Origin: a virus
Lineage: Duplodnaviria; Heunggongvirae; Uroviricota; Caudoviricetes
IMG/VR virus record: IMGVR_UViG_3300028995_000024
Location: 1-5,857 of that record
Length of the DNA: 5,857 nt
Reading direction: 5' to 3' (one strand)
Under the pieces are notes generated by a model. That model saw nothing but the letters and a program-made list of their open reading frames with translations, made no database searches and was not told the DNA's origin. Within the stretch, counting starts at the first letter, position 1. Each line of letters begins with the position of its first letter. Shown here in pieces: positions 1 to 5,857 of the stretch. The position numbers and the translations under genes were made by a program.

Positions 1-911
1 CGAAAAAGGCTTCGTCTAACAACAATTCCTTTAGTGCGATTTACAAGGAATGGTACGAGCACAAGAAGCAAGTCTGGTCAGTAGGATATGCGACTGAACT
101 TGCCAAAATGTTTGATGACGACATTTTGCCCATCATCGGCGGTCTTGAGATTCAGGATATTGAGCCGATGCAACTGCTGGAAGTAATCCGCAGATTTGAA
201 GATCGCGGTGCAATGGAGCGAGCAAATAAAGCCCGCAGAAGATGCGGCGAGGTTTTCCGTTACGCTATTGTCACTGGTAGGGCTAAATATAACCCGGCAC
301 CTGACCTTGCTGACGCCATGAAGGGATACCGCAAGAAGAACTTCCCGTTTTTACCTGCCGACCAGATCCCGGCATTCAACAAAGCACTTGCAACATTTTC
401 AGGAAGTATCGTATCGCTCATTGCGACCAAAGTTTTACGCTACACAGCCCTAAGAACGAAAGAGCTTCGTTCCATGCAATGGAAGAACGTCGATTTTGAA
501 AACAGGATTATCACCATCGACGCCAGTGTGATGAAGGGACGCAAAATTCATGTGGTCCCGATGTCAGACCAGGTGGTTGAACTTCTCACTACGCTAAGCT
601 CAATCACCAAACCAGTATCAGAGTTTGTTTTTGCCGGGCGCAACGATAAGAAGAAGCCAATCTGCGAGAACGCGGTATTGCTTGTGATCAAACAAATCGG
701 CTATGAGGGTCTGGAAAGCGGTCATGGATTCAGGCATGAATTCAGCACAATTATGAACGAGCACGAATGGCCTGCTGACGCTATTGAAGTGCAACTGGCA
801 CATGCCAACGGCGGATCTGTGCGTGGTATTTACAACCATGCTCAGTATCTCGATAAACGCAGAGAAATGATGCAATGGTGGGCGGACTGGCTTGAGGAGA
901 AGGTATCATAG
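1..911 (+). CDS. int: Tyrosine site-specific integrase (phage/P4-like family), 5'-partial; the N-terminus lies upstream of the window
   Basis: The reading frame is open from the window edge (first full codon at nt 3) to TAG at 909-911. Translation upstream of the ORF-track ATG at 108 stays open (...KKASSNNNSFSAIYKEWYEHKKQVWSVGYATELAK-MFDDD...), so that ATG is internal. Catalytic-domain signatures of tyrosine recombinases are present: LRTKELR (box I Arg), HGFRHEF (H-x-x-R box II) and RGIYNHAQYL (catalytic Tyr), ending in MMQWWADWL. Confidence 0.9.
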   Translation, partial: KKASSNNNSFSAIYKEWYEHKKQVWSVGYATELAKMFDDDILPIIGGLEIQDIEPMQLLEVIRRFEDRGAMERANKARRRCGEVFRYAIVTGRAKYNPAPDLADAMKGYRKKNFPFLPADQIPAFNKALATFSGSIVSLIATKVLRYTALRTKELRSMQWKNVDFENRIITIDASVMKGRKIHVVPMSDQVVELLTTLSSITKPVSEFVFAGRNDKKKPICENAVLLVIKQIGYEGLESGHGFRHEFSTIMNEHEWPADAIEVQLAHANGGSVRGIYNHAQYLDKRREMMQWWADWLEEKVS

Positions 912-920
912 GTAAACAGC

Positions 921-946
921 GCAAAGACTTGCAAACCTATGCAAAG
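921..946. repeat. Three direct hexamer repeats, GCAAAG / GCAAAC / GCAAAG, at exact 10-bp phasing just downstream of the int stop codon
   Basis: Read directly from the sequence: 921 gcaaagactt, 931 gcaaacctat, 941 gcaaagcttt. One helical turn between copies is consistent with a same-face protein-binding array. Function is unknown. Confidence 0.3.
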
Positions 947-1059
947 CTTTGTGTGTCCAGTTTTTGTCTCACGCATACAGCTTGAGATGCTAACTGGTCG
1001 ATCATCCAAGCTCTTAGTGGTAGACTCACCGCACACTTTTATCAGCGATTAATCATGAA

Positions 1060-1242
1060 ATGAAACTATCACTTGATAACCTCGTCCGCTTTGCTTCTTT
1101 AATGTGCGTAGCTGGCCTTCTAACTGGTTACCGTTCAAGATATCCATCACTACAGGTGATAGAGATACTCATGCTGGCGGTTTGGCTGCATCAGGACTAT
1201 CCTCACATCAAGAGCATCATAGAAAATAATAAAAAACAATAA
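1060..1242 (+). CDS. Hypothetical small protein (60 aa), doubtful; possibly a small membrane peptide or gene remnant upstream of the acyltransferase
   Basis: ATG-initiated ORF in the int-acyltransferase intergenic region with two short hydrophobic stretches (FASLMCVAGLLTG, VIEILMLAVWL). I recognise no family and see no convincing ribosome-binding site. It lies in the same orientation as, and 17 bp upstream of, the acyltransferase gene. Confidence 0.2.
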   Translation: MKLSLDNLVRFASLMCVAGLLTGYRSRYPSLQVIEILMLAVWLHQDYPHIKSIIENNKKQ

Positions 1243-1259
1243 TTCAATTCAGGTCAACA

Positions 1260-2327
1260 ATGAATAGCAAAATTTTATCAGTGCATTACATGAGGGCTTT
1301 GGCCTCCATCGCGGTGTTAATAGATCATTTCTCAGGTCTATTGGTTATCAATGGGAATCCAATTCCATTTTTATCGAGAGGTGGATTTGGAGTAGATCTT
1401 TTCTACATTATTAGTGGATTTATCATCTACATTTCGTCAGGAAACAAAGATAATAACAAACCTATAAAATTCATACTAAAGCGATTTTTCAGAATTTATC
1501 CATTATTCATCGTTGCATGGATAATAGGGATGTCATTTGTGTTCAAGAGTGACAGCGTATGGTCATTTTTAGAGCCGCTACTATTGGTATATCAAAATTA
1601 TAATGGAATGGCCCCTCAGTTCGGTACCCATGTTATGGGAACCCCATGGACACTGGCTTACGAACTACTCTTTTACGCAATTTTTGTTTTAGCTATTTCA
1701 ATAACTCACAAGCACCGGGCGGCATTATCAATAGCGATACTGATCCTAATGCCGATATCACTACAACTAATATTCAACGATTCATTCTCCATTCAGAGTT
1801 CTGCATTTGCCAATGCAAGTAAAGACATTCCTATGTATGGAGTAATTAGAATGGCAAGTGGAACAATAATGTTTGAGTTTGCTATAGGAATTTTATTAGG
1901 TGTTTCCTTCAAGAAAATGAAGAAGATTGATATAACACAAAGCGCATCTACGTTATTCTTCTATTCTGGGGTAATGATATCTATTGCAATACTTATTACC
2001 AACGGAAATCAGATTTCTAAATTTGGTTTGCAAGGCTATTTCATTCCGTCAATTGTTCTTTTTATATCGTTTTTCTTCAGGGATAAAACATCAAATATAA
2101 AACACAATGGATTCCTGGAGTTCTTCGGAAATATTTCATACTCGCTGTACATCACACATTTCATAATTTATGTATGGATAGTTCAGCATCTTGACAGGGT
2201 ATGGATGGAACCGGTTAGGGGGTACCCTATAGTTATTATCGGAATGGTTGCAAGCATTATATTCTCTTGGTGTTGTTATGTCTTTGTAGAGAAACCATTC
2301 ATAAAAGTCGGCAAGCGATATTTATAA
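1260..2327 (+). CDS. Acyltransferase family 3 integral membrane protein (Oac/OafA-like carbohydrate O-acyltransferase); candidate O-antigen/LPS O-acetyltransferase
   Basis: 355-aa ORF that is hydrophobic throughout, with about 10 predicted transmembrane segments. Family-typical motifs are present: N-terminal R-x-L-A-x-I-A-V-x-x-x-H (RALASIAVLIDHF), GVDLFYIISGF, KRFFRIYPLF, WTLAYELLFY and C-terminal GNISYSLYITHF. A weak AGGT ribosome-binding site lies ~5 nt before the ATG. The gene is markedly AT-rich (about 25-35% G+C in sampled lines) against ~47% in int and ~55-60% in the tail genes. Confidence 0.85.
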   Translation: MNSKILSVHYMRALASIAVLIDHFSGLLVINGNPIPFLSRGGFGVDLFYIISGFIIYISSGNKDNNKPIKFILKRFFRIYPLFIVAWIIGMSFVFKSDSVWSFLEPLLLVYQNYNGMAPQFGTHVMGTPWTLAYELLFYAIFVLAISITHKHRAALSIAILILMPISLQLIFNDSFSIQSSAFANASKDIPMYGVIRMASGTIMFEFAIGILLGVSFKKMKKIDITQSASTLFFYSGVMISIAILITNGNQISKFGLQGYFIPSIVLFISFFFRDKTSNIKHNGFLEFFGNISYSLYITHFIIYVWIVQHLDRVWMEPVRGYPIVIIGMVASIIFSWCCYVFVEKPFIKVGKRYL

Positions 2328-2347
2328 AAATAGCGTCCATAAGGACT

Positions 2348-2379
2348 AATGCCAGTCAGTTAAGCAACTGACTGGCATT
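2348..2379 (+). terminator. Perfect 14-bp inverted repeat with 4-nt loop (AATGCCAGTCAGTT-aagc-AACTGACTGGCATT) 21 bp after the acyltransferase stop; possible terminator or RNA 3' stability hairpin
   Basis: The two arms are exact reverse complements, read directly. No U-tract follows (the next bases are acggcaatcagg), so it is not a canonical intrinsic terminator. The call rests on position and stem strength only. Confidence 0.35.
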
Positions 2380-2435
2380 ACGGCAATCAGGAGGGATATC
2401 CGATTTTGACAGAGCAACCATCTTTATCAAAATAA

Positions 2436-2663
2436 AACCTTATTGCATTGGCGGATTTGAAAAAAAGAAAACTTATTAATGAAGCCAACGAGCACATGAA
2501 CAGAAGACAATGGCCTGGTAAAGCGGCCATTGGTCGTCTGAAAGGTGAGAAACTGGCGCAATATAATTTGTGGCTGGATTATCTGGACGCACTGGAACTG
2601 GTTGATACCTCCAGTGCTCCAGATATTGAATGGCCTACGCCTCCGGCAGTTCAGGCCAGATGA
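2436..2663 (+). pseudogene. Tail-fibre assembly protein (Tfa/Mu-U family), C-terminal ~75-codon fragment, 5'-truncated
   Basis: The frame opens immediately after a TAA at 2433-2435 and has no in-frame ATG; the ORF track starts it at a TTG at 2448. The translation ends ...KLAQYNLWLDYLDALELVDTSSAPDIEWPTPPAVQAR, the characteristic Tfa C-terminus (DTSxAPDxxWP). The sequence upstream is unrelated and AT-rich, so the N-terminal part of the gene is missing. Confidence 0.7.
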
Positions 2664-3228
2664 CATCCGGCGCGGTGCTGGTATCTGTTGCCGTCACCGC
2701 GTCAATGTAATCCAGCACGGCGTTAAGTCGGGTGGTCTCTGCCTGCATCAGCTTCCGCCCGGCCTGTAATTTCAGCTGAATCAGACTAATGGAAGCCATT
2801 GCTGCATCAATCAGTGACTGGCGCTGTGCTTCCGCCACTTCTACTACGGCACCGTGTTGTGCCTCAGTATCTGTCACCCATTTCTCACCATCCCATTCAT
2901 CGTATGGTGTTAACGGTGAAAGCGTGACATAATCGTCTTTGATGGCACCGATATAATCCACTGTAACAGCTGCACCATTTTCTGTTGAGTAAACAGTCTC
3001 ATTGCGATGGTCTTCTTCATGGCTCCATCCCTTACCCGTAAATACTGCCACTTTCCCCGGAATGTTTTCGCCAGGGTCAATACCAGTGGAACAGGCGGGC
3101 ATACTTACGCCAGTATTAATATATTCATCAGACCAGCCAGTATATTCATACGTTACTGCATCATAATAAAAACAACGCATATCGCCCGGCACTGTAGCCA
3201 GCCCATTTTCATCAAAAACAGGTTTCAT
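2635..3228 (-). CDS. tfa: Tail-fibre assembly protein (Tfa/Mu-U/lambda-Tfa family)
   Basis: 197-aa ORF whose C-terminus ...RLNAVLDYIDAVTATDTSTAPDVIWPELPEA matches the Tfa family signature. Its ATG (3228..3226) overlaps the stop of the upstream tail-fibre gene as TAATG, indicating translational coupling. It lies immediately 3' of a tail-fibre gene, as expected for this family. Confidence 0.85.
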   Translation of the reverse strand: MKPVFDENGLATVPGDMRCFYYDAVTYEYTGWSDEYINTGVSMPACSTGIDPGENIPGKVAVFTGKGWSHEEDHRNETVYSTENGAAVTVDYIGAIKDDYVTLSPLTPYDEWDGEKWVTDTEAQHGAVVEVAEAQRQSLIDAAMASISLIQLKLQAGRKLMQAETTRLNAVLDYIDAVTATDTSTAPDVIWPELPEA

Positions 3229-3992
3229 TATTTAGCCCTCACCAGAAAGTTAAACGCGATATTACGAGGACGTGTTTCACTTGCAGTTTTCGTTTCAATG
3301 GCACTATCAATAGAGAAATGCTGCAAATCCTGAGATGCAGCACCGTAATTGGTGTAAGAATTAACAAGTGCACCCGCTTTTATTGAGCCAGAGCTACCCA
3401 TAGCTCCCCCCATGAAATTCCCTGTTATACGCTGCTGAGCAAAGTCCTGTGCGCTTAACAACGTGCGACCACCGTCTACACCTCGCCCGTCATCCCAGAT
3501 ACGAATGAAATCACCGCGGGCTTCAGGTAATACCAGCGAAGGAAACACTTTCGCCAGCACAGGATAATCAGAAGCAGAAAATTTCGCCCCGTTGAACTTC
3601 AAAAACACCATACTGGACCAGCTGCCGATTACAGTATTTGGCATTGCAGCGGACGGCCATAAGAACGGAACGCCAATAGCTGGAGCACCTTCTCCCAAAC
3701 CAAGGTTTTCGAGAGCTGTTTTCACCGTACCATCCGATTTGATATCGCCAAACGGATTATTGCGGCTTAACAGCAGCGCACGAAGCGCGGTAAGCAGCTG
3801 GTCGTGCCGCGTCTTCTCAAGACTGGCACCGGATGCCTCCACCACGCTGCAAAGCTCCTCCTGCAACATGTCAAAGTAGTCATCATCCAGAGCGGTGGCA
3901 GGTGTGCCGGTCTGGGGGTTACCACGGGTAAAACCGTTCTTACCCGCGCCGAACTTATCCTTCTGCGCGGTTTTCGTGTCTATACGATGCAT
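3228..3992 (-). CDS. stf: Phage tail-fibre protein (short side tail fibre; conserved N-terminal anchor region plus C-terminal collar-like receptor-binding region)
   Basis: 254-aa ORF. The N-terminus [14 protein letters not shown]...[27 protein letters not shown] resembles the conserved N-terminal region of enterobacterial prophage tail fibres. The C-terminal part contains a motif like the phage tail-collar domain ([33 protein letters not shown]). It sits between a gp48-like baseplate gene and tfa. Confidence 0.8.
3690..3715. other. Candidate DNA-invertase crossover site (hix/gix/pix-like 26-bp dyad) inside the tail-fibre gene
   Basis: TTCTCCCAAACC-AA-GGTTTTCGAGAG consists of two 12-bp half-sites around a 2-bp AA core. 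The left half and the reverse complement of the right half (CTCTCGAAAACC) agree at 9 of 12 positions. Compare hixL TTCTTGAAAACC-AA-GGTTTTTGATAA and gix TTCCTGTAAACC-GA-GGTTTTGGATAA, both recalled from memory. The site encodes residues ~93-101 ([10 protein letters not shown]) of the tail fibre, which is where a constant/variable boundary would be expected. Confidence 0.5.
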
Positions 3993-3995
3993 GGA

Positions 3996-4580
3996 TTACT
4001 CCGGATATTTAAAAATTACGTAGGTATCCCACGGGCAGAGTTTGTTAAGCACGCACTCGACAACGGTGTCCCCCCAGATACGCAGCGCAGAATCACAGGG
4101 ATCGCCACATGTCATCCAGGTGGTGTTGGTGGCGGCTGGCATGTTGACCTGCCAGTAATACCGCCATTCCGGCGCATTCACCGCGTCAGTACAGACCGAT
4201 GAGCAGGTGAACGTGCTTTTGTCGTATCGCGTGATGTTGGCATCTGGTCTGCCCAGGGCAGCAAGCTGTGCAAGATAAAAATTCTCGTTGATGCTGCCCG
4301 CCAGGTTAACCTTCGCATCCAGCCGTTGCTGACGCTGACGAAGGGTCTTTGTCCCTGCGGGAATACATTCATCCGGCAGACCGCACAGACGCTCCCAGCG
4401 GTTTATCAGTTCAGTGGTGGTGCGCGGATCCAGCTCCCGCATCAGGGCATCCGCACGCTGATGAACACGGGTTAATGACGGTGCCGCACCGGCAATCGCC
4501 GGATCGCTGGCTGATCACGCCGGACCGGGGGGCAACAGTGCCGACAACAGACGGATGTAATCATCGTTTGTCACGTCCAT
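3996..4580 (-). pseudogene. Mu gp48-like / DUF2313 (YmfQ-like) baseplate-associated tail protein, interrupted by an in-frame TGA at 4517..4515
   Basis: The ORF track reports only 3996..4442 (148 aa, [26 protein letters not shown]...). The same frame continues upstream for 24 codons ([24 protein letters not shown]) to a TGA. A further 21 codons upstream (MDVTNDDYIRLLSALLPPGPA) start at an ATG at 4580..4578, which has a GGGGA ribosome-binding site ~7 nt upstream and overlaps the stop of the upstream gene. An intact gene would be 194 codons. From memory of the family, the position holding TGA normally holds Trp (TGG) in an LLPPGxAW motif. Confidence 0.7.
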
Positions 4581-5629
4581 GAAATCGTCCCCAGAACCGC
4601 CAGTTCATTTTTTGCAATGGAGATATTGTCTGCCGGTGCAAGCAACTGATGGCTGTATTCCCCGTTCGCACCGGAAATCGCCTCACTGATACGCGATACC
4701 TTCAGTTCTCCCTGCGGATAACCATCACGCAGCAGGAACGAACGCAACTCCGCGGTGATGGCAGCCCGTATTTCCGGTGTGTCCGGCGTCACGCGGATAT
4801 GAAAATCCACCGTATGTGCCACCGGCCTGAACACATACAAATCAGAGCCTGCCACCGGGGCCAGTGGCTCGATATGTTGTCTTGCCGCCGTTTCCGTTGA
4901 TTCTTCCGGAATGGGATTAATCAGGTCACTGCTGGCAATCATCACACCGACAGTTCCCGTTCCCATCCAGTGACGGTATGTCCATGCGCGGGTAATGCCG
5001 GGCACTTCTTTAGCCCAGACGACATAGTCCCCGTCAGCCCCGCCCTGCGGCGTCCAGTAATACCGCTCAATGACGCGGGCGCGCCACGTTTCCAGATCTT
5101 CAGTATCGAATCCGCCAGTCAGGGTATCTGCAACACCGGAAGACGGCAGACCATTAACCGGCGTGACCAGGATTAATGACGTACCGTCGTCAGCGTTACC
5201 GACCGCGCCTGCACTTGAGCAGGCGATCGGCACGCGCAGGACACCACCGGAGCTGGTTGCATCGGCAGTTGCCGTGTACTGAACCAGGTCATCGCGCTGA
5301 ATAACACTCCCGGCGGTCACCTTCAGGCCATCGCTGACACCTTCCCAGCGCATATACCCGCTGGCAGCCGTGGCCCCCTTGCGCGGACACCGTTTCATCG
5401 CAGCATGTCGCGCCAGCCAGGACTCATCGCACAGGTCAGGCAGCATGTTCATTGCCAGATAATCGATGTACCCGTAAACCGTATGCAGCGCCGCCGCATA
5501 CACCTTTGCCCGCACGTCTTCATCCATGCGCCGGAGCGTGTCGCTGACGTCCAGCCTGGCGAATAAATCGTTACGGAGCATACTGATATTTTCTGCCAGC
5601 GTCGGGCGCTGAAATTCACTGTCCGCCAT
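4571..5629 (-). CDS. Baseplate assembly protein J-like (Mu gp47 / P2 gpJ family)
   Basis: 352-aa ORF whose size, position (between a gp46-like and a gp48-like gene, upstream of the tail fibre) and sequence character match baseplate-J family proteins. Its start overlaps the stop of the upstream gene by 14 nt. The family assignment is by recollection of the conserved gp46-gp47-gp48-fibre gene order, not by alignment. Confidence 0.8.
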   Translation of the reverse strand: MADSEFQRPTLAENISMLRNDLFARLDVSDTLRRMDEDVRAKVYAAALHTVYGYIDYLAMNMLPDLCDESWLARHAAMKRCPRKGATAASGYMRWEGVSDGLKVTAGSVIQRDDLVQYTATADATSSGGVLRVPIACSSAGAVGNADDGTSLILVTPVNGLPSSGVADTLTGGFDTEDLETWRARVIERYYWTPQGGADGDYVVWAKEVPGITRAWTYRHWMGTGTVGVMIASSDLINPIPEESTETAARQHIEPLAPVAGSDLYVFRPVAHTVDFHIRVTPDTPEIRAAITAELRSFLLRDGYPQGELKVSRISEAISGANGEYSHQLLAPADNISIAKNELAVLGTISWT

Positions 5630-5857
5630 GCGTTATCGCACTCCACAGATCATCAAAAGAAATCATTACCGGTCCGTCACGACGCCAGAGAGTGATACTG
5701 TTACCCAGTTCATTAATCCCGGTGCGGCGGATATCCAGATCAATACGGGACACCACGCCGTCATCAATCATCCATTGCAGGCATTCGCGGATATACCCCC
5801 TTACTGTCTGCACCAGCTGATTGGTCAGTTTGCTGCGCTGAAGCAGCCACAGTCGGG
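5616..5857 (-). CDS. Mu gp46-like baseplate protein, 5'-partial; the N-terminus lies beyond the right edge of the window
   Basis: The minus-strand frame is open from the window edge (...RLWLLQRSKLTNQLVQTVRGYIRECLQWMIDDGVVSRIDL...) to TGA at 5618..5616. The ORF-track start at 5813 is an internal GTG. The RLWLL motif and the position immediately upstream of the baseplate-J-like gene fit the gp46 family. Confidence 0.6.
   Translation of the reverse strand, partial: RLWLLQRSKLTNQLVQTVRGYIRECLQWMIDDGVVSRIDLDIRRTGINELGNSITLWRRDGPVMISFDDLWSAITHGGQ

What the first reader, a model, noticed from the sequence alone, without database searches (positions are those of the whole stretch)
1..5857. Three-block compositional mosaic with an inverted Mu-type baseplate module abutting the integrase end
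The window has three blocks of different composition: integrase (~47% G+C), cargo (~30%) and tail module (~55-60%). The late structural genes (gp46-like to tfa) read toward the integrase and stop within ~1.7 kb of it. In an intact phage, tens of kilobases would separate these modules, or the tail genes would be followed by an invertase. This architecture indicates a heavily deleted, cryptic prophage that retains mainly int and a conversion gene, as described for CPS-53/KpLE1-type remnants. The retained gene is then the one most likely under selection.
Basis: inference. Interest (0 to 1): 0.35.

Follow-up and report, generated by a model that had tools for sequence, protein, structure and literature searches.

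The report
Integrase end of an argW prophage
The window is the integrase end of a known type of E. coli prophage, in which integrase, a surface-sugar-modifying cargo gene and the tail-fibre genes normally lie side by side, so the layout is ordinary and does not itself show that the prophage has been deleted.

Summary
The compositional mosaic is real, but there are four blocks: int 47%, cargo 37%, tfa/fibre tip 47.5%, baseplate 56.6%. The window is the attL-proximal 5.9 kb of a prophage at tRNA-argW in E. coli 300033. It combines an IntS/TorI recombination module (as in KplE1, Sf6 and HK620) with SfV-type Mu-like tail genes.

The order int, then cargo, then convergent tail fibre is native. It occurs in the phages Sf6, SfV and SKA5. 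The identical junction also sits in a 42.1 kb, apparently complete prophage in strain Yu5.

The copy in this genome is defective but still 32.5 kb long. It has lost its head module and carries several nonsense or frameshifted tail genes, one of them in the window (ymfQ W22*). Sister strains are cut down to about 20 kb and 9.6 kb yet keep int, cargo, tfa and fibre intact.

The cargo is a rare 355-aa AT3 acyltransferase. It has all the Oac-type motifs and is probably an O-antigen O-acetylase.

A unique 34-bp IS4 scar joins the cargo to a truncated second tfa. That fragment and a lone Pin crossover site are fossils of an invertible fibre segment.

The parts
1..911 (+). 3' 909 nt of intS. This is a P4/IntS-type tyrosine integrase; the full gene is 1158 nt and starts 247 nt before the window.
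   Evidence: Pfam Phage_integrase 1e-39 and Phage_int_M. 99% aa identity to the Sf6 integrase. 93.4% nt identity to K-12 intS. Annotated as intS, with argW upstream.
921..971 (.). Conserved 51-bp motif between int and the cargo. It is also found upstream of O-antigen-modification cargo in K-12, Salmonella and Enterobacter prophages. Function unknown.
   Evidence: blastn: 94% identity to Salmonella L011/L012 and 88% to Enterobacter L020/L022. It lies within the 1-971 homology to K-12. Alignment.
972..2382 (+). Low-GC cargo block (37.0% GC). It differs from strain Yu5 at only 0.43% of positions, while the flanking genes differ by about 5%.
   Evidence: Homology breakpoints. GC values. Divergence per segment. 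Present in only 5 of 5,426 complete E. coli genomes.
1060..1242 (+). 60-aa hydrophobic small ORF directly upstream of the acyltransferase.
   Evidence: ORF list. 44% aa identity (E 1e-16) to a 60-aa ORF in the same position upstream of the Enterobacter homologue. No Pfam hit.
1260..2327 (+). 355-aa AT3-only membrane acyltransferase; probable O-antigen or surface-polysaccharide O-acetyltransferase (lysogenic-conversion cargo).
   Evidence: Pfam PF01757, 3.4e-29, full length. R12-X10-H23, F48-Y-I-I-S52-G53 and R75-x-x-R78 are invariant in an alignment with Sf6 Oac. 92% aa homologue next to a P22-type tailspike in Salmonella. dN/dS 0.058 against that homologue.
2330..2346 (+). Left arm, loop and start of the right arm of the cargo's terminator hairpin (ATAGCGTCC ATAA GGAC), cut off by the IS4 scar.
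   Evidence: The Salmonella homologue has the complete hairpin ATATAGCGTCC-TTAT-GGACGCTATAT at the same place. Window sequence.
2347..2380 (.). 34-bp perfect palindrome, read as a collapsed IS4: its first 30 nt are one IS4 end and its last 7 nt are the other IS4 tip. It marks the cargo/tfa' junction.
   Evidence: RNA fold -28.3 kcal/mol, z -6.1. The full 34-mer occurs only in the 5 genomes with this junction, while the 30-mer matches the IS4 end in 2,512 genomes. Absent from 185,579 species representatives.
2383..2663 (+). C-terminal two-thirds of a second tail-fibre-assembly gene (tfa'). It is the counterpart of K-12 tfaS and a fossil of the far half of a Pin-type invertible segment.
   Evidence: Pfam Caudo_TAP 1.6e-17, profile positions 66-130 only. 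Collinear with the full 420-nt tfa' of the O103:H2 prophage from its nt 140 onward. Annotated as a pseudogene lacking its N-terminus.
2635..3228 (-). Tail fibre assembly protein (197 aa, intact).
   Evidence: Pfam Caudo_TAP 1.9e-26. Annotation. Same protein accession in all four near-identical assemblies.
3228..3992 (-). Tail fibre (254 aa). The constant N-terminal part is at 3689-3992 and the variable receptor-binding part at 3228-3688.
   Evidence: Homology to SfV orf21 stops at 3689. Weak Collar-domain hit.
3689..3708 (.). Single retained Pin/Gin-type crossover site, CTTCTCCCAAACCAAGGTTT, at the constant/variable boundary of the fibre gene.
   Evidence: The site forms an inverted-repeat pair flanking the invertible segment in SKA5 and in the O103:H2 prophage. 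The window has exactly one copy, with 0 expected by chance.
3996..4580 (-). gp48/YmfQ baseplate wedge gene, a pseudogene. Trp22 TGG has become TGA at 4515-4517.
   Evidence: Translation. Codon comparison with Yu5 and O103. Pfam Phage_Mu_Gp48. 'Internal stop' is annotated in three assemblies.
4571..5629 (-). Baseplate J/gp47 (352 aa, intact).
   Evidence: Pfam Baseplate_J 1.1e-53. About 97% nt identity to SfV orf19.
5616..5857 (-). 3' part of the gp46 baseplate gene, which continues beyond the window.
   Evidence: Pfam GP46 1.7e-16. Annotation.

Best explanation
The window is the attL-proximal end of a mosaic temperate phage integrated at tRNA-argW. Two known modules are joined in it. One is the IntS/TorI site-specific recombination module, in which attP lies between int and xis, so int is the first prophage gene and torI the last. 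The other is the SfV-type late region: HK97-like head and Mu-like contractile tail, ending in gp46-gp47-gp48-fibre-tfa.

In this family the late operon runs toward the att/int end. A 'moron' slot between int and the last tail gene holds variable surface-modification cargo. The 1.7 kb spacing between int and tail is therefore native (shown).

The GC mosaic reflects separate ancestries: int module, foreign low-GC cargo, exchangeable fibre tip with tfa, and conserved baseplate (shown as a pattern; the ancestry is inferred).

The cargo is a 60-aa ORF plus a 355-aa AT3-only acyltransferase. It most likely passes acetyl groups across the inner membrane onto the O-antigen or another surface polysaccharide. 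That would change the serotype and block adsorption of phages using the same receptor. This function is inferred from the motifs, the family and the position next to the receptor-binding genes.

The junction of cargo with the tail module was made by one IS4-associated event. IS4 inserted into the cargo's terminator hairpin. A deletion or recombination at IS4 then removed the other half of a Pin-type invertible fibre segment: the first third of tfa', the alternative fibre tip and the invertase. IS4 itself later collapsed to a 34-bp palindrome. These steps are inferred from the sequence scars.

In strain 300033 the prophage has since decayed. The head module is deleted and there are nonsense or frameshift mutations in five tail genes. 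It keeps both att sites and intact intS and torI, so it may still excise, but it cannot make particles.
For: Source and context:
- 100% match to NZ_CM128588.1.
- argW is followed by intS, the acyltransferase, the tail genes, terminase, lysis genes, Q, cI/cro and torI.
- The 22-bp att core is repeated 32,461 bp apart.

Native order of int, cargo and tail:
- Sf6 has tailspike, then oac, then intS, then attP, then torI.
- SfV has tfa, then gtrV/B/A, then int.
- SKA5 has int, dinI, invertase, the invertible segment, then the tail genes.
- The literature states that O-antigen modification genes adjoin attP/int (PMC3636060). It also states that argW phages share the attL/attR/IntS/TorI module (PMC3509656).
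- Yu5 has the same junction in a 42.1 kb prophage with no flagged structural genes.

Variable cargo slot at argW:
- gtrABS in K-12.
- Three different AT3 acyltransferase genes in different strains.
- A hypothetical gene in one strain.
- An empty slot in another.

Cargo:
- Pfam AT3 and conserved functional motifs.
- Homologues lie next to tailspikes in Salmonella and Enterobacter prophages.
- dN/dS is 0.058.

IS4 scar and interrupted terminator.

Fossil invertible segment.

Decay series.
Against: - No experiment shows what the acyltransferase acetylates. It is only 28% identical to Oac over its N-terminal half and has no NCBIfam equivalog.
- The intactness of the Yu5 prophage is judged from annotation only.
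- Between the window and Yu5 the acyltransferase has 1 synonymous and 3 non-synonymous differences. That is too few to show purifying selection in this lineage.
- The IS4 scenario is a reconstruction. The 13-nt flanks of the scar match at only 9 of 13 positions, so a simple insertion followed by collapse does not explain them, and the order of events is not fixed.
- Frameshift calls in the flanking genes could partly be assembly errors. The nonsense codons and deletions, however, recur in three assemblies.
Confidence: 0.85

Rival explanations
1. One reading: a large deletion brought the tail genes next to int. On this view the element is a minimal remnant, like K-12 CPS-53, that keeps mainly int and a conversion gene.
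For: - The prophage in this strain is defective.
- Sister strain 300444 retains only about 9.6 kb, from int to a truncated tape-measure gene.
- K-12 CPS-53 has the same int, cargo, tfaS/yfdK layout in a 10 kb remnant.
Against: - The same junction occurs in the 42.1 kb, complete-looking Yu5 prophage.
- The equivalent order occurs in the phages Sf6, SfV and SKA5.
- This strain's copy is 32.46 kb.
- Its deletions lie elsewhere, in the head module and gene P, not between int and the tail genes.
Confidence: 0.04
2. The acyltransferase does not modify O-antigen. It acylates another envelope polymer (capsule, colanic acid, ECA or peptidoglycan), or it acts mainly as a phage-exclusion or defence gene with no serological effect.
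For: - AT3 proteins act on many substrates (PMC9558356 abstract; PMC7448272).
- There is no close characterised homologue. The best hits in the phage collection are at most 31% identical.
- Some sources name relatives 'exopolysaccharide production protein ExoZ'.
Against: - The gene's position is the one used by oac and gtr genes.
- Homologues always lie convergent with O-antigen-binding tailspikes or fibres.
- The AT3-only architecture and motifs match Oac.
Confidence: 0.3
3. The headless prophage is a domesticated tail-only killing particle (an R-type tailocin), kept for its tail and lysis genes.
For: The head genes are cleanly missing while the tail, terminase and lysis genes remain.
Against: - The sheath and N genes have internal stops, gp45 is frameshifted, P is partly deleted and gp48 carries W22*.
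- Sister strains lose the tail genes altogether.
Confidence: 0.02
4. The whole tail module was flipped relative to int by site-specific inversion or IS-mediated inversion, so the 'inverted' orientation is secondary.
For: - A Pin crossover site and an IS4 scar are present.
- The small tfa/tfa' pair is in the opposite orientation to K-12 and SKA5.
Against: - Only the roughly 0.5-0.8 kb tfa/tfa' stretch is inverted relative to those relatives.
- The baseplate genes have the same orientation toward int in K-12, SKA5, Yu5 and every argW prophage sampled.
Confidence: 0.03

Closest known systems
Shigella phage Sf6 int-oac-tailspike region (IntS/TorI-type module at argW)
   Same: - The integrase is 99% identical in amino acids.
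- attP lies between int and the torI-type xis.
- A single AT3-only O-acetyltransferase gene sits between int and the receptor-binding gene, convergent with it.
   Different: - Sf6 is a P22-like podovirus with a tailspike, whereas here the neighbour is a Mu-type baseplate and fibre.
- Oac is only 28% identical over its N-terminal half.
- There is no IS4 scar or tfa' fossil in Sf6.
Shigella phage SfV and its relatives SfI, SfII, SfIV and Escherichia phage SKA5
   Same: - Window 3689-5857 is 96.6-97.5% identical to their gp46-gp47-gp48-fibre genes.
- The late operon ends next to the conversion cargo and int.
   Different: - SfV uses a thrW integrase with attP between gtrA and int (PMC3636060).
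- Its cargo is gtrABV, not an acyltransferase.
- SfV has no second tfa.
- SKA5 keeps a full invertible segment with its invertase.
E. coli K-12 cryptic prophage CPS-53/KplE1
   Same: - Same argW site, intS and torI.
- Same layout: int, cargo, truncated plus-strand tfa (tfaS), then minus-strand tfa (yfdK) and fibre (yfdL).
   Different: - K-12 carries gtrABS (yfdGHI) as cargo and is reduced to 10.2 kb.
- Here the cargo is an AT3 gene and 32.5 kb remain.
- The tfa/tfa' pair is in the opposite orientation.
Pin/Gin/Cin invertible tail-fibre segments (e14 P, Mu G, P1 C)
   Same: - The crossover-site sequence lies at the constant/variable boundary of the fibre gene.
- The two tfa genes are convergent and overlap by 29 nt.
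   Different: Only one crossover site is present, there is no invertase and no alternative fibre tip. The switch is dead.

Membership tests
IntS/TorI (KplE1-Sf6-HK620) argW recombination module | Integration in the 3' end of tRNA-argW, with att core direct repeats at both prophage ends | tested here: met
   tRNA-Arg lies at L001 19518-19592. The 22-bp core CTGCAGGGGACACCATTTATCA is repeated 32,461 bp away, next to torI.
IntS/TorI (KplE1-Sf6-HK620) argW recombination module | intS is the first prophage gene and torI (the recombination directionality factor) is the last | tested here: met
   Annotation. The integrase is 99% aa identical to Sf6 Int. The module is described in PMC3509656.
CPS-53-type minimal remnant (about 10 kb, lytic and structural genes lost) | Only int, cargo and a few fragments retained | tested here: not met
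   The element is 32.46 kb and includes tail, terminase, lysis, Q and immunity genes. Sister strain 300444 does approach this state.
SfV-like temperate myoviruses (Mu-like tail, HK97-like head, lambdoid early region) | Collinear gp46-gp47-gp48-fibre-tfa late genes homologous to SfV orf18-22 | tested here: met
   96.9% nt identity over window 3689-5857. Pfam GP46, Baseplate_J and Phage_Mu_Gp48.
SfV-like temperate myoviruses (Mu-like tail, HK97-like head, lambdoid early region) | Complete head module (portal, protease, capsid, connectors) | tested here: not met
   The module is absent between terL and the sheath gene in strain 300033; about 5.6 kb is missing relative to Yu5. It is present in the Yu5 copy.
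SfV-like temperate myoviruses (Mu-like tail, HK97-like head, lambdoid early region) | thrW-type integrase with attP between the cargo and int | tested here: not met
   Here the att site is upstream of int in argW. The SfV arrangement is given and PMC3636060.
AT3-only O-antigen O-acetyltransferases (Oac-like) | Full-length PF01757 domain with no fused SGNH domain, about 330-380 aa | tested here: met
   Residues 7-340 of 355 match profile positions 3-325 of 326, E 3.4e-29, and no other domain is found.
AT3-only O-antigen O-acetyltransferases (Oac-like) | R/K-X10-H in TMH1, the FFXISG motif and the RXXR motif | tested here: met
   R12...H23, F48-Y-I-I-S52-G53 and R75-F-F-R78 are all invariant in a 14-sequence alignment that includes Sf6 Oac. 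The motifs are defined in PMC7448272 and PMC3467182.
AT3-only O-antigen O-acetyltransferases (Oac-like) | Demonstrated O-acetylation of an O-antigen sugar, or serotype conversion | not testable with these tools
   Needs LPS chemistry or serology.
Pin/Gin-type invertible tail-fibre switch | Two inverted crossover sites flanking the segment | tested here: not met
   Only one copy is present, at 3689-3708. Relatives have the pair.
Pin/Gin-type invertible tail-fibre switch | Adjacent serine invertase gene | tested here: not met
   None is present in the window or in this prophage. It is present in the O103:H2 prophage and in SKA5.
R-type tailocin | Intact sheath, tube and baseplate genes without head genes | tested here: not met
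   The sheath, N, P, gp45 and gp48 genes are all disrupted.

The most novel reading that the evidence does not exclude
The 60-aa ORF plus the 355-aa AT3 gene may form an uncharacterised serotype-converting O-acetylation cassette. On this reading it moves between P22-like prophages of Salmonella, Enterobacter prophages and SfV-like myoviruses of E. coli. An IS4-mediated event captured it here, and the host keeps it under selection while the rest of the prophage decays (42 kb, then 32 kb, then 20 kb, then 9.6 kb).
Probability: 0.45. Interest if true: 0.3.

Novelty: new member of a known kind. Interest (0 to 1): 0.15.

Why it matters
The main value is corrective. Finding an integrase about 1.7 kb from convergent tail-fibre genes is the normal layout of serotype-converting phages and should not be taken as a sign of deletion.

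Three modest points of interest remain:
- A rare, uncharacterised AT3 acyltransferase cargo (5 of 5,426 complete E. coli genomes) that may define a new O-antigen modification.
- A clean natural decay series of one prophage, in which the integrase-proximal cargo and fibre genes survive.
- A datable IS4 scar that shows how a cargo gene came to replace half of an invertible fibre switch.

Tried and rejected
- tRNA scan of the window: none found. argW lies just outside the window.
- Rfam scan at gathering threshold: no RNA family.
- NCBIfam: no model for the acyltransferase, tfa or fibre.
- tblastn of the acyltransferase against 50,697 phage records: only distant hits of 25-31% identity. Sf6 oac and SfII do not reach E 1e-5.
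- Exact 34-mer of the IS4 scar in 185,579 species-representative genomes: no match. It is therefore not a dispersed MITE.
- Phase-variable gtr-type promoter upstream of the cargo: considered, but I saw only one GATC in 912-1259 by eye, so I did not pursue it.
- Tailocin reading: rejected because of the tail pseudogenes.
- Assembly artefact: rejected because five independent assemblies share the junction.
- Selection test within the lineage: only 4 substitutions in the acyltransferase between 300033 and Yu5, so it is uninformative.

Full report
**Observation.** A sliding GC profile and per-feature counts confirm a strong compositional mosaic. The best description, using homology breakpoints, is four blocks:
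- 1-971, int and its 3' flank: 47.3% GC.
- 972-2382, cargo: 37.0% GC. The CDS is 35.5% with GC3 0.37, and z = -8.5 against the window mean.
- 2383-3688, tfa', tfa and the variable fibre tip: 47.5% GC.
- 3689-5857, constant fibre part and baseplate: 56.6% GC, z = +7.7.

Pfam confirms the gene identities: integrase, Acyl_transf_3, Caudo_TAP twice, Phage_Mu_Gp48, Baseplate_J and GP46. The tail genes read toward int, and the tfa stop is 1,723 nt from the int stop.

**Where it comes from.** The window is 100% identical to E. coli strain 300033 (NZ_CM128588.1) and 99.9% identical to strains 300444 and CB209. It is 97.2% identical to strain Yu5.
- In all of these it lies immediately downstream of tRNA-Arg(argW), the CPS-53/KplE1 site.
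- In 300033 the gene order is argW, intS, acyltransferase, tfa' fragment, tfa, fibre, baseplate, tape measure, tube, sheath, terminase, lysis, Q, immunity region, yfdPQR, torI.
- The 22-bp att core is repeated 32,461 bp apart.
- The element therefore uses the IntS/TorI recombination module described for KplE1, HK620 and Sf6 (PMC3509656). Its integrase is 99% identical in amino acids to Sf6 Int.
- Its late genes are SfV-type. Window 3689-5857 is 96.6-97.5% identical to SfV, SfI, SfII, SfIV and SKA5.

**Is the int/tail adjacency a deletion artefact? No.** The same order occurs in isolated phages and in a complete-looking prophage.
- Sf6 has tailspike, then oac, then intS, then attP, then torI. 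The tailspike and int stops are 1.2 kb apart.
- SfV has tfa, then gtrV-gtrB-gtrA, then int, 2.9 kb apart.
- SKA5 has int, dinI, invertase, invertible segment, tfa, fibre and baseplate.
- The literature states the rule explicitly for serotype-converting phages (PMC3636060).
- Strain Yu5 carries the identical junction in a 42.1 kb argW prophage. Its portal, protease, capsid, connectors, sheath, tube, tape measure, baseplate, terminase, lysis, Q, O/P, exo/bet/gam and torI genes carry no pseudogene flags.
- Other argW prophages show the same frame with different contents of the slot. K-12 has gtrABS. Three other strains each have a different AT3 gene. One strain has a hypothetical gene, and one has nothing.

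The architecture is thus the family's normal 'moron slot' between int and the end of the late operon.

**Is the prophage nevertheless defective? Yes, but for reasons largely outside the window.**
- Relative to Yu5, strain 300033 lacks about 5.6 kb holding all the head genes and about 0.87 kb of baseplate gene P.
- The sheath and N genes have internal stops, gp45 is frameshifted, and gp48/ymfQ has Trp22 TGG changed to TGA at window 4515-4517.
- The same lesions appear in the CB209 and 300444 assemblies, so they are real and inherited.
- Those strains are cut further from the far end. CB209 is truncated by IS1 to about 20 kb, and 300444 by IS903B to about 9.6 kb.
- IntS, the acyltransferase, Tfa and the fibre keep identical protein accessions in all of them.

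This gives a natural decay series (42.1, 32.5, about 20 and about 9.6 kb).

**The cargo.** Window 1260-2327 encodes a 355-aa AT3-only acyltransferase.
- The motifs shown by mutagenesis to matter in Oac and OafA are present: R/K-X10-H, FFXISG and RXXR (PMC3467182 and PMC7448272). Here they are R12...H23, F48-YIIS-G53 and R75-FF-R78.
- These residues are invariant in an alignment with Sf6 Oac and 12 homologues.
- The gene is rare in E. coli, occurring in 5 of 5,426 complete genomes.
- It has a 92%-identical homologue in Salmonella and 75-78% homologues in Enterobacter. Each lies convergent with a tailspike gene in a prophage.
- dN/dS against the Salmonella gene is 0.058.
- A 60-aa hydrophobic ORF (1060-1242) directly upstream is conserved in Enterobacter at 44% amino-acid identity.

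The most likely function is O-acetylation of the O-antigen or another surface polysaccharide. This is an inference and has not been shown.

**How the junction was made.**
- The Salmonella homologue ends with an intact terminator hairpin, ATATAGCGTCC-TTAT-GGACGCTATAT.
- In the window the hairpin is cut after GGAC by a perfect 34-bp palindrome at 2347-2380.
- The first 30 nt of the palindrome are identical to one IS4 end, and its last 7 nt to the other IS4 tip.
- The left flank resembles known IS4 targets.
- Two bases beyond the palindrome, homology begins to the middle of the second tfa gene of Pin-type prophages.
- The 34-mer occurs only in the five genomes with this junction and in none of 185,579 species representatives.

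I infer the following sequence. IS4 inserted into the cargo terminator. An IS4-associated deletion or recombination removed the 5' third of tfa', the alternative fibre tip and the invertase. IS4 then collapsed between its terminal repeat and an internal copy of that repeat.

**Fossils of an invertible fibre switch.** Three features show that the ancestor had a functional invertible fibre switch, which is now fixed:
- A single Pin-type crossover site at 3689-3708. It is paired in SKA5 and in the O103:H2 prophage.
- The convergent tfa and tfa' genes, which overlap by 29 nt.
- The opposite orientation of this pair relative to K-12 and SKA5.

**Recent history of the cargo block.** Between 300033 and Yu5 the cargo block differs at 0.43% of positions, whereas int differs at 5.2% and tfa at 4.7%. 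The cargo with its scar is therefore a recently shared unit sitting in recombining flanks.

**Verdict.** This is an ordinary, well-understood kind of locus: the integrase end of a mosaic serotype-converting prophage. It carries a new, uncharacterised cargo allele and some instructive scars.

Noticed in passing
window 2347-2380: A perfect 34-bp palindrome, TAATGCCAGTCAGTTAAGCAACTGACTGGCATTA, made of the two tips of IS4. It interrupts the cargo's terminator hairpin exactly at the cargo/tfa' junction. It is unique to the five genomes with this junction.
   Followed up: yes
window 3689-3708: A lone Pin/Gin-type crossover site (CTTCTCCCAAACCAAGGTTT) inside the fibre gene, at the exact point where homology to SfV begins. 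Its partner site, the alternative fibre tip and the invertase are gone. The tfa/tfa' pair is inverted relative to K-12 CPS-53 and phage SKA5.
   Followed up: yes
window 1060-1242: A 60-aa hydrophobic ORF immediately upstream of the acyltransferase. It is conserved (44% aa identity, same length and position) upstream of the Enterobacter homologue but absent from the Salmonella locus. It might be a small membrane partner or leader peptide.
   Followed up: partly
window 921-971: A 51-bp sequence containing the palindrome CAAAGCTTTG. It is conserved at 88-94% upstream of O-antigen-modification cargo in K-12 CPS-53, a Salmonella P22-like prophage and Enterobacter prophages, whatever the orientation of int. 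Function unknown; it could be a regulatory site or a module boundary.
   Followed up: partly
window 972-2382 compared with its flanks (L008 20001-25857): Between strains 300033 and Yu5 the cargo block differs at 0.43% of positions, but int differs at 5.2%, tfa at 4.7% and the constant fibre part at 6.6%. Either the cargo was exchanged recently or the flanks have recombined with other prophages.
   Followed up: partly
L001 38584-41736 (same prophage, outside the window): A 1,050-aa metallophosphoesterase gene lies on the opposite strand between the lysis genes and Q. It is possibly a defence or moron gene. In strain CB209 it is truncated by IS1.
   Followed up: no
L020/L022 7001-9119 (Enterobacter): The Enterobacter homologue is followed by a second, different AT3 acyltransferase gene (331 aa) in tandem. 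Both are convergent with a tailspike gene.
   Followed up: no
protein P0007: A 406-aa database protein combines integrase domains with the first half of this acyltransferase (98% identity over 53% of the query). It is probably a rearranged or chimeric copy of the int-cargo junction.
   Followed up: no
L003 5505-16906 (beyond attR in strain 300033): An island carrying the ipuA/ipuB invertases and the phase-variable UpaE autotransporter lies between the prophage attR and dsdC. K-12 has dsdC directly after attR.
   Followed up: no
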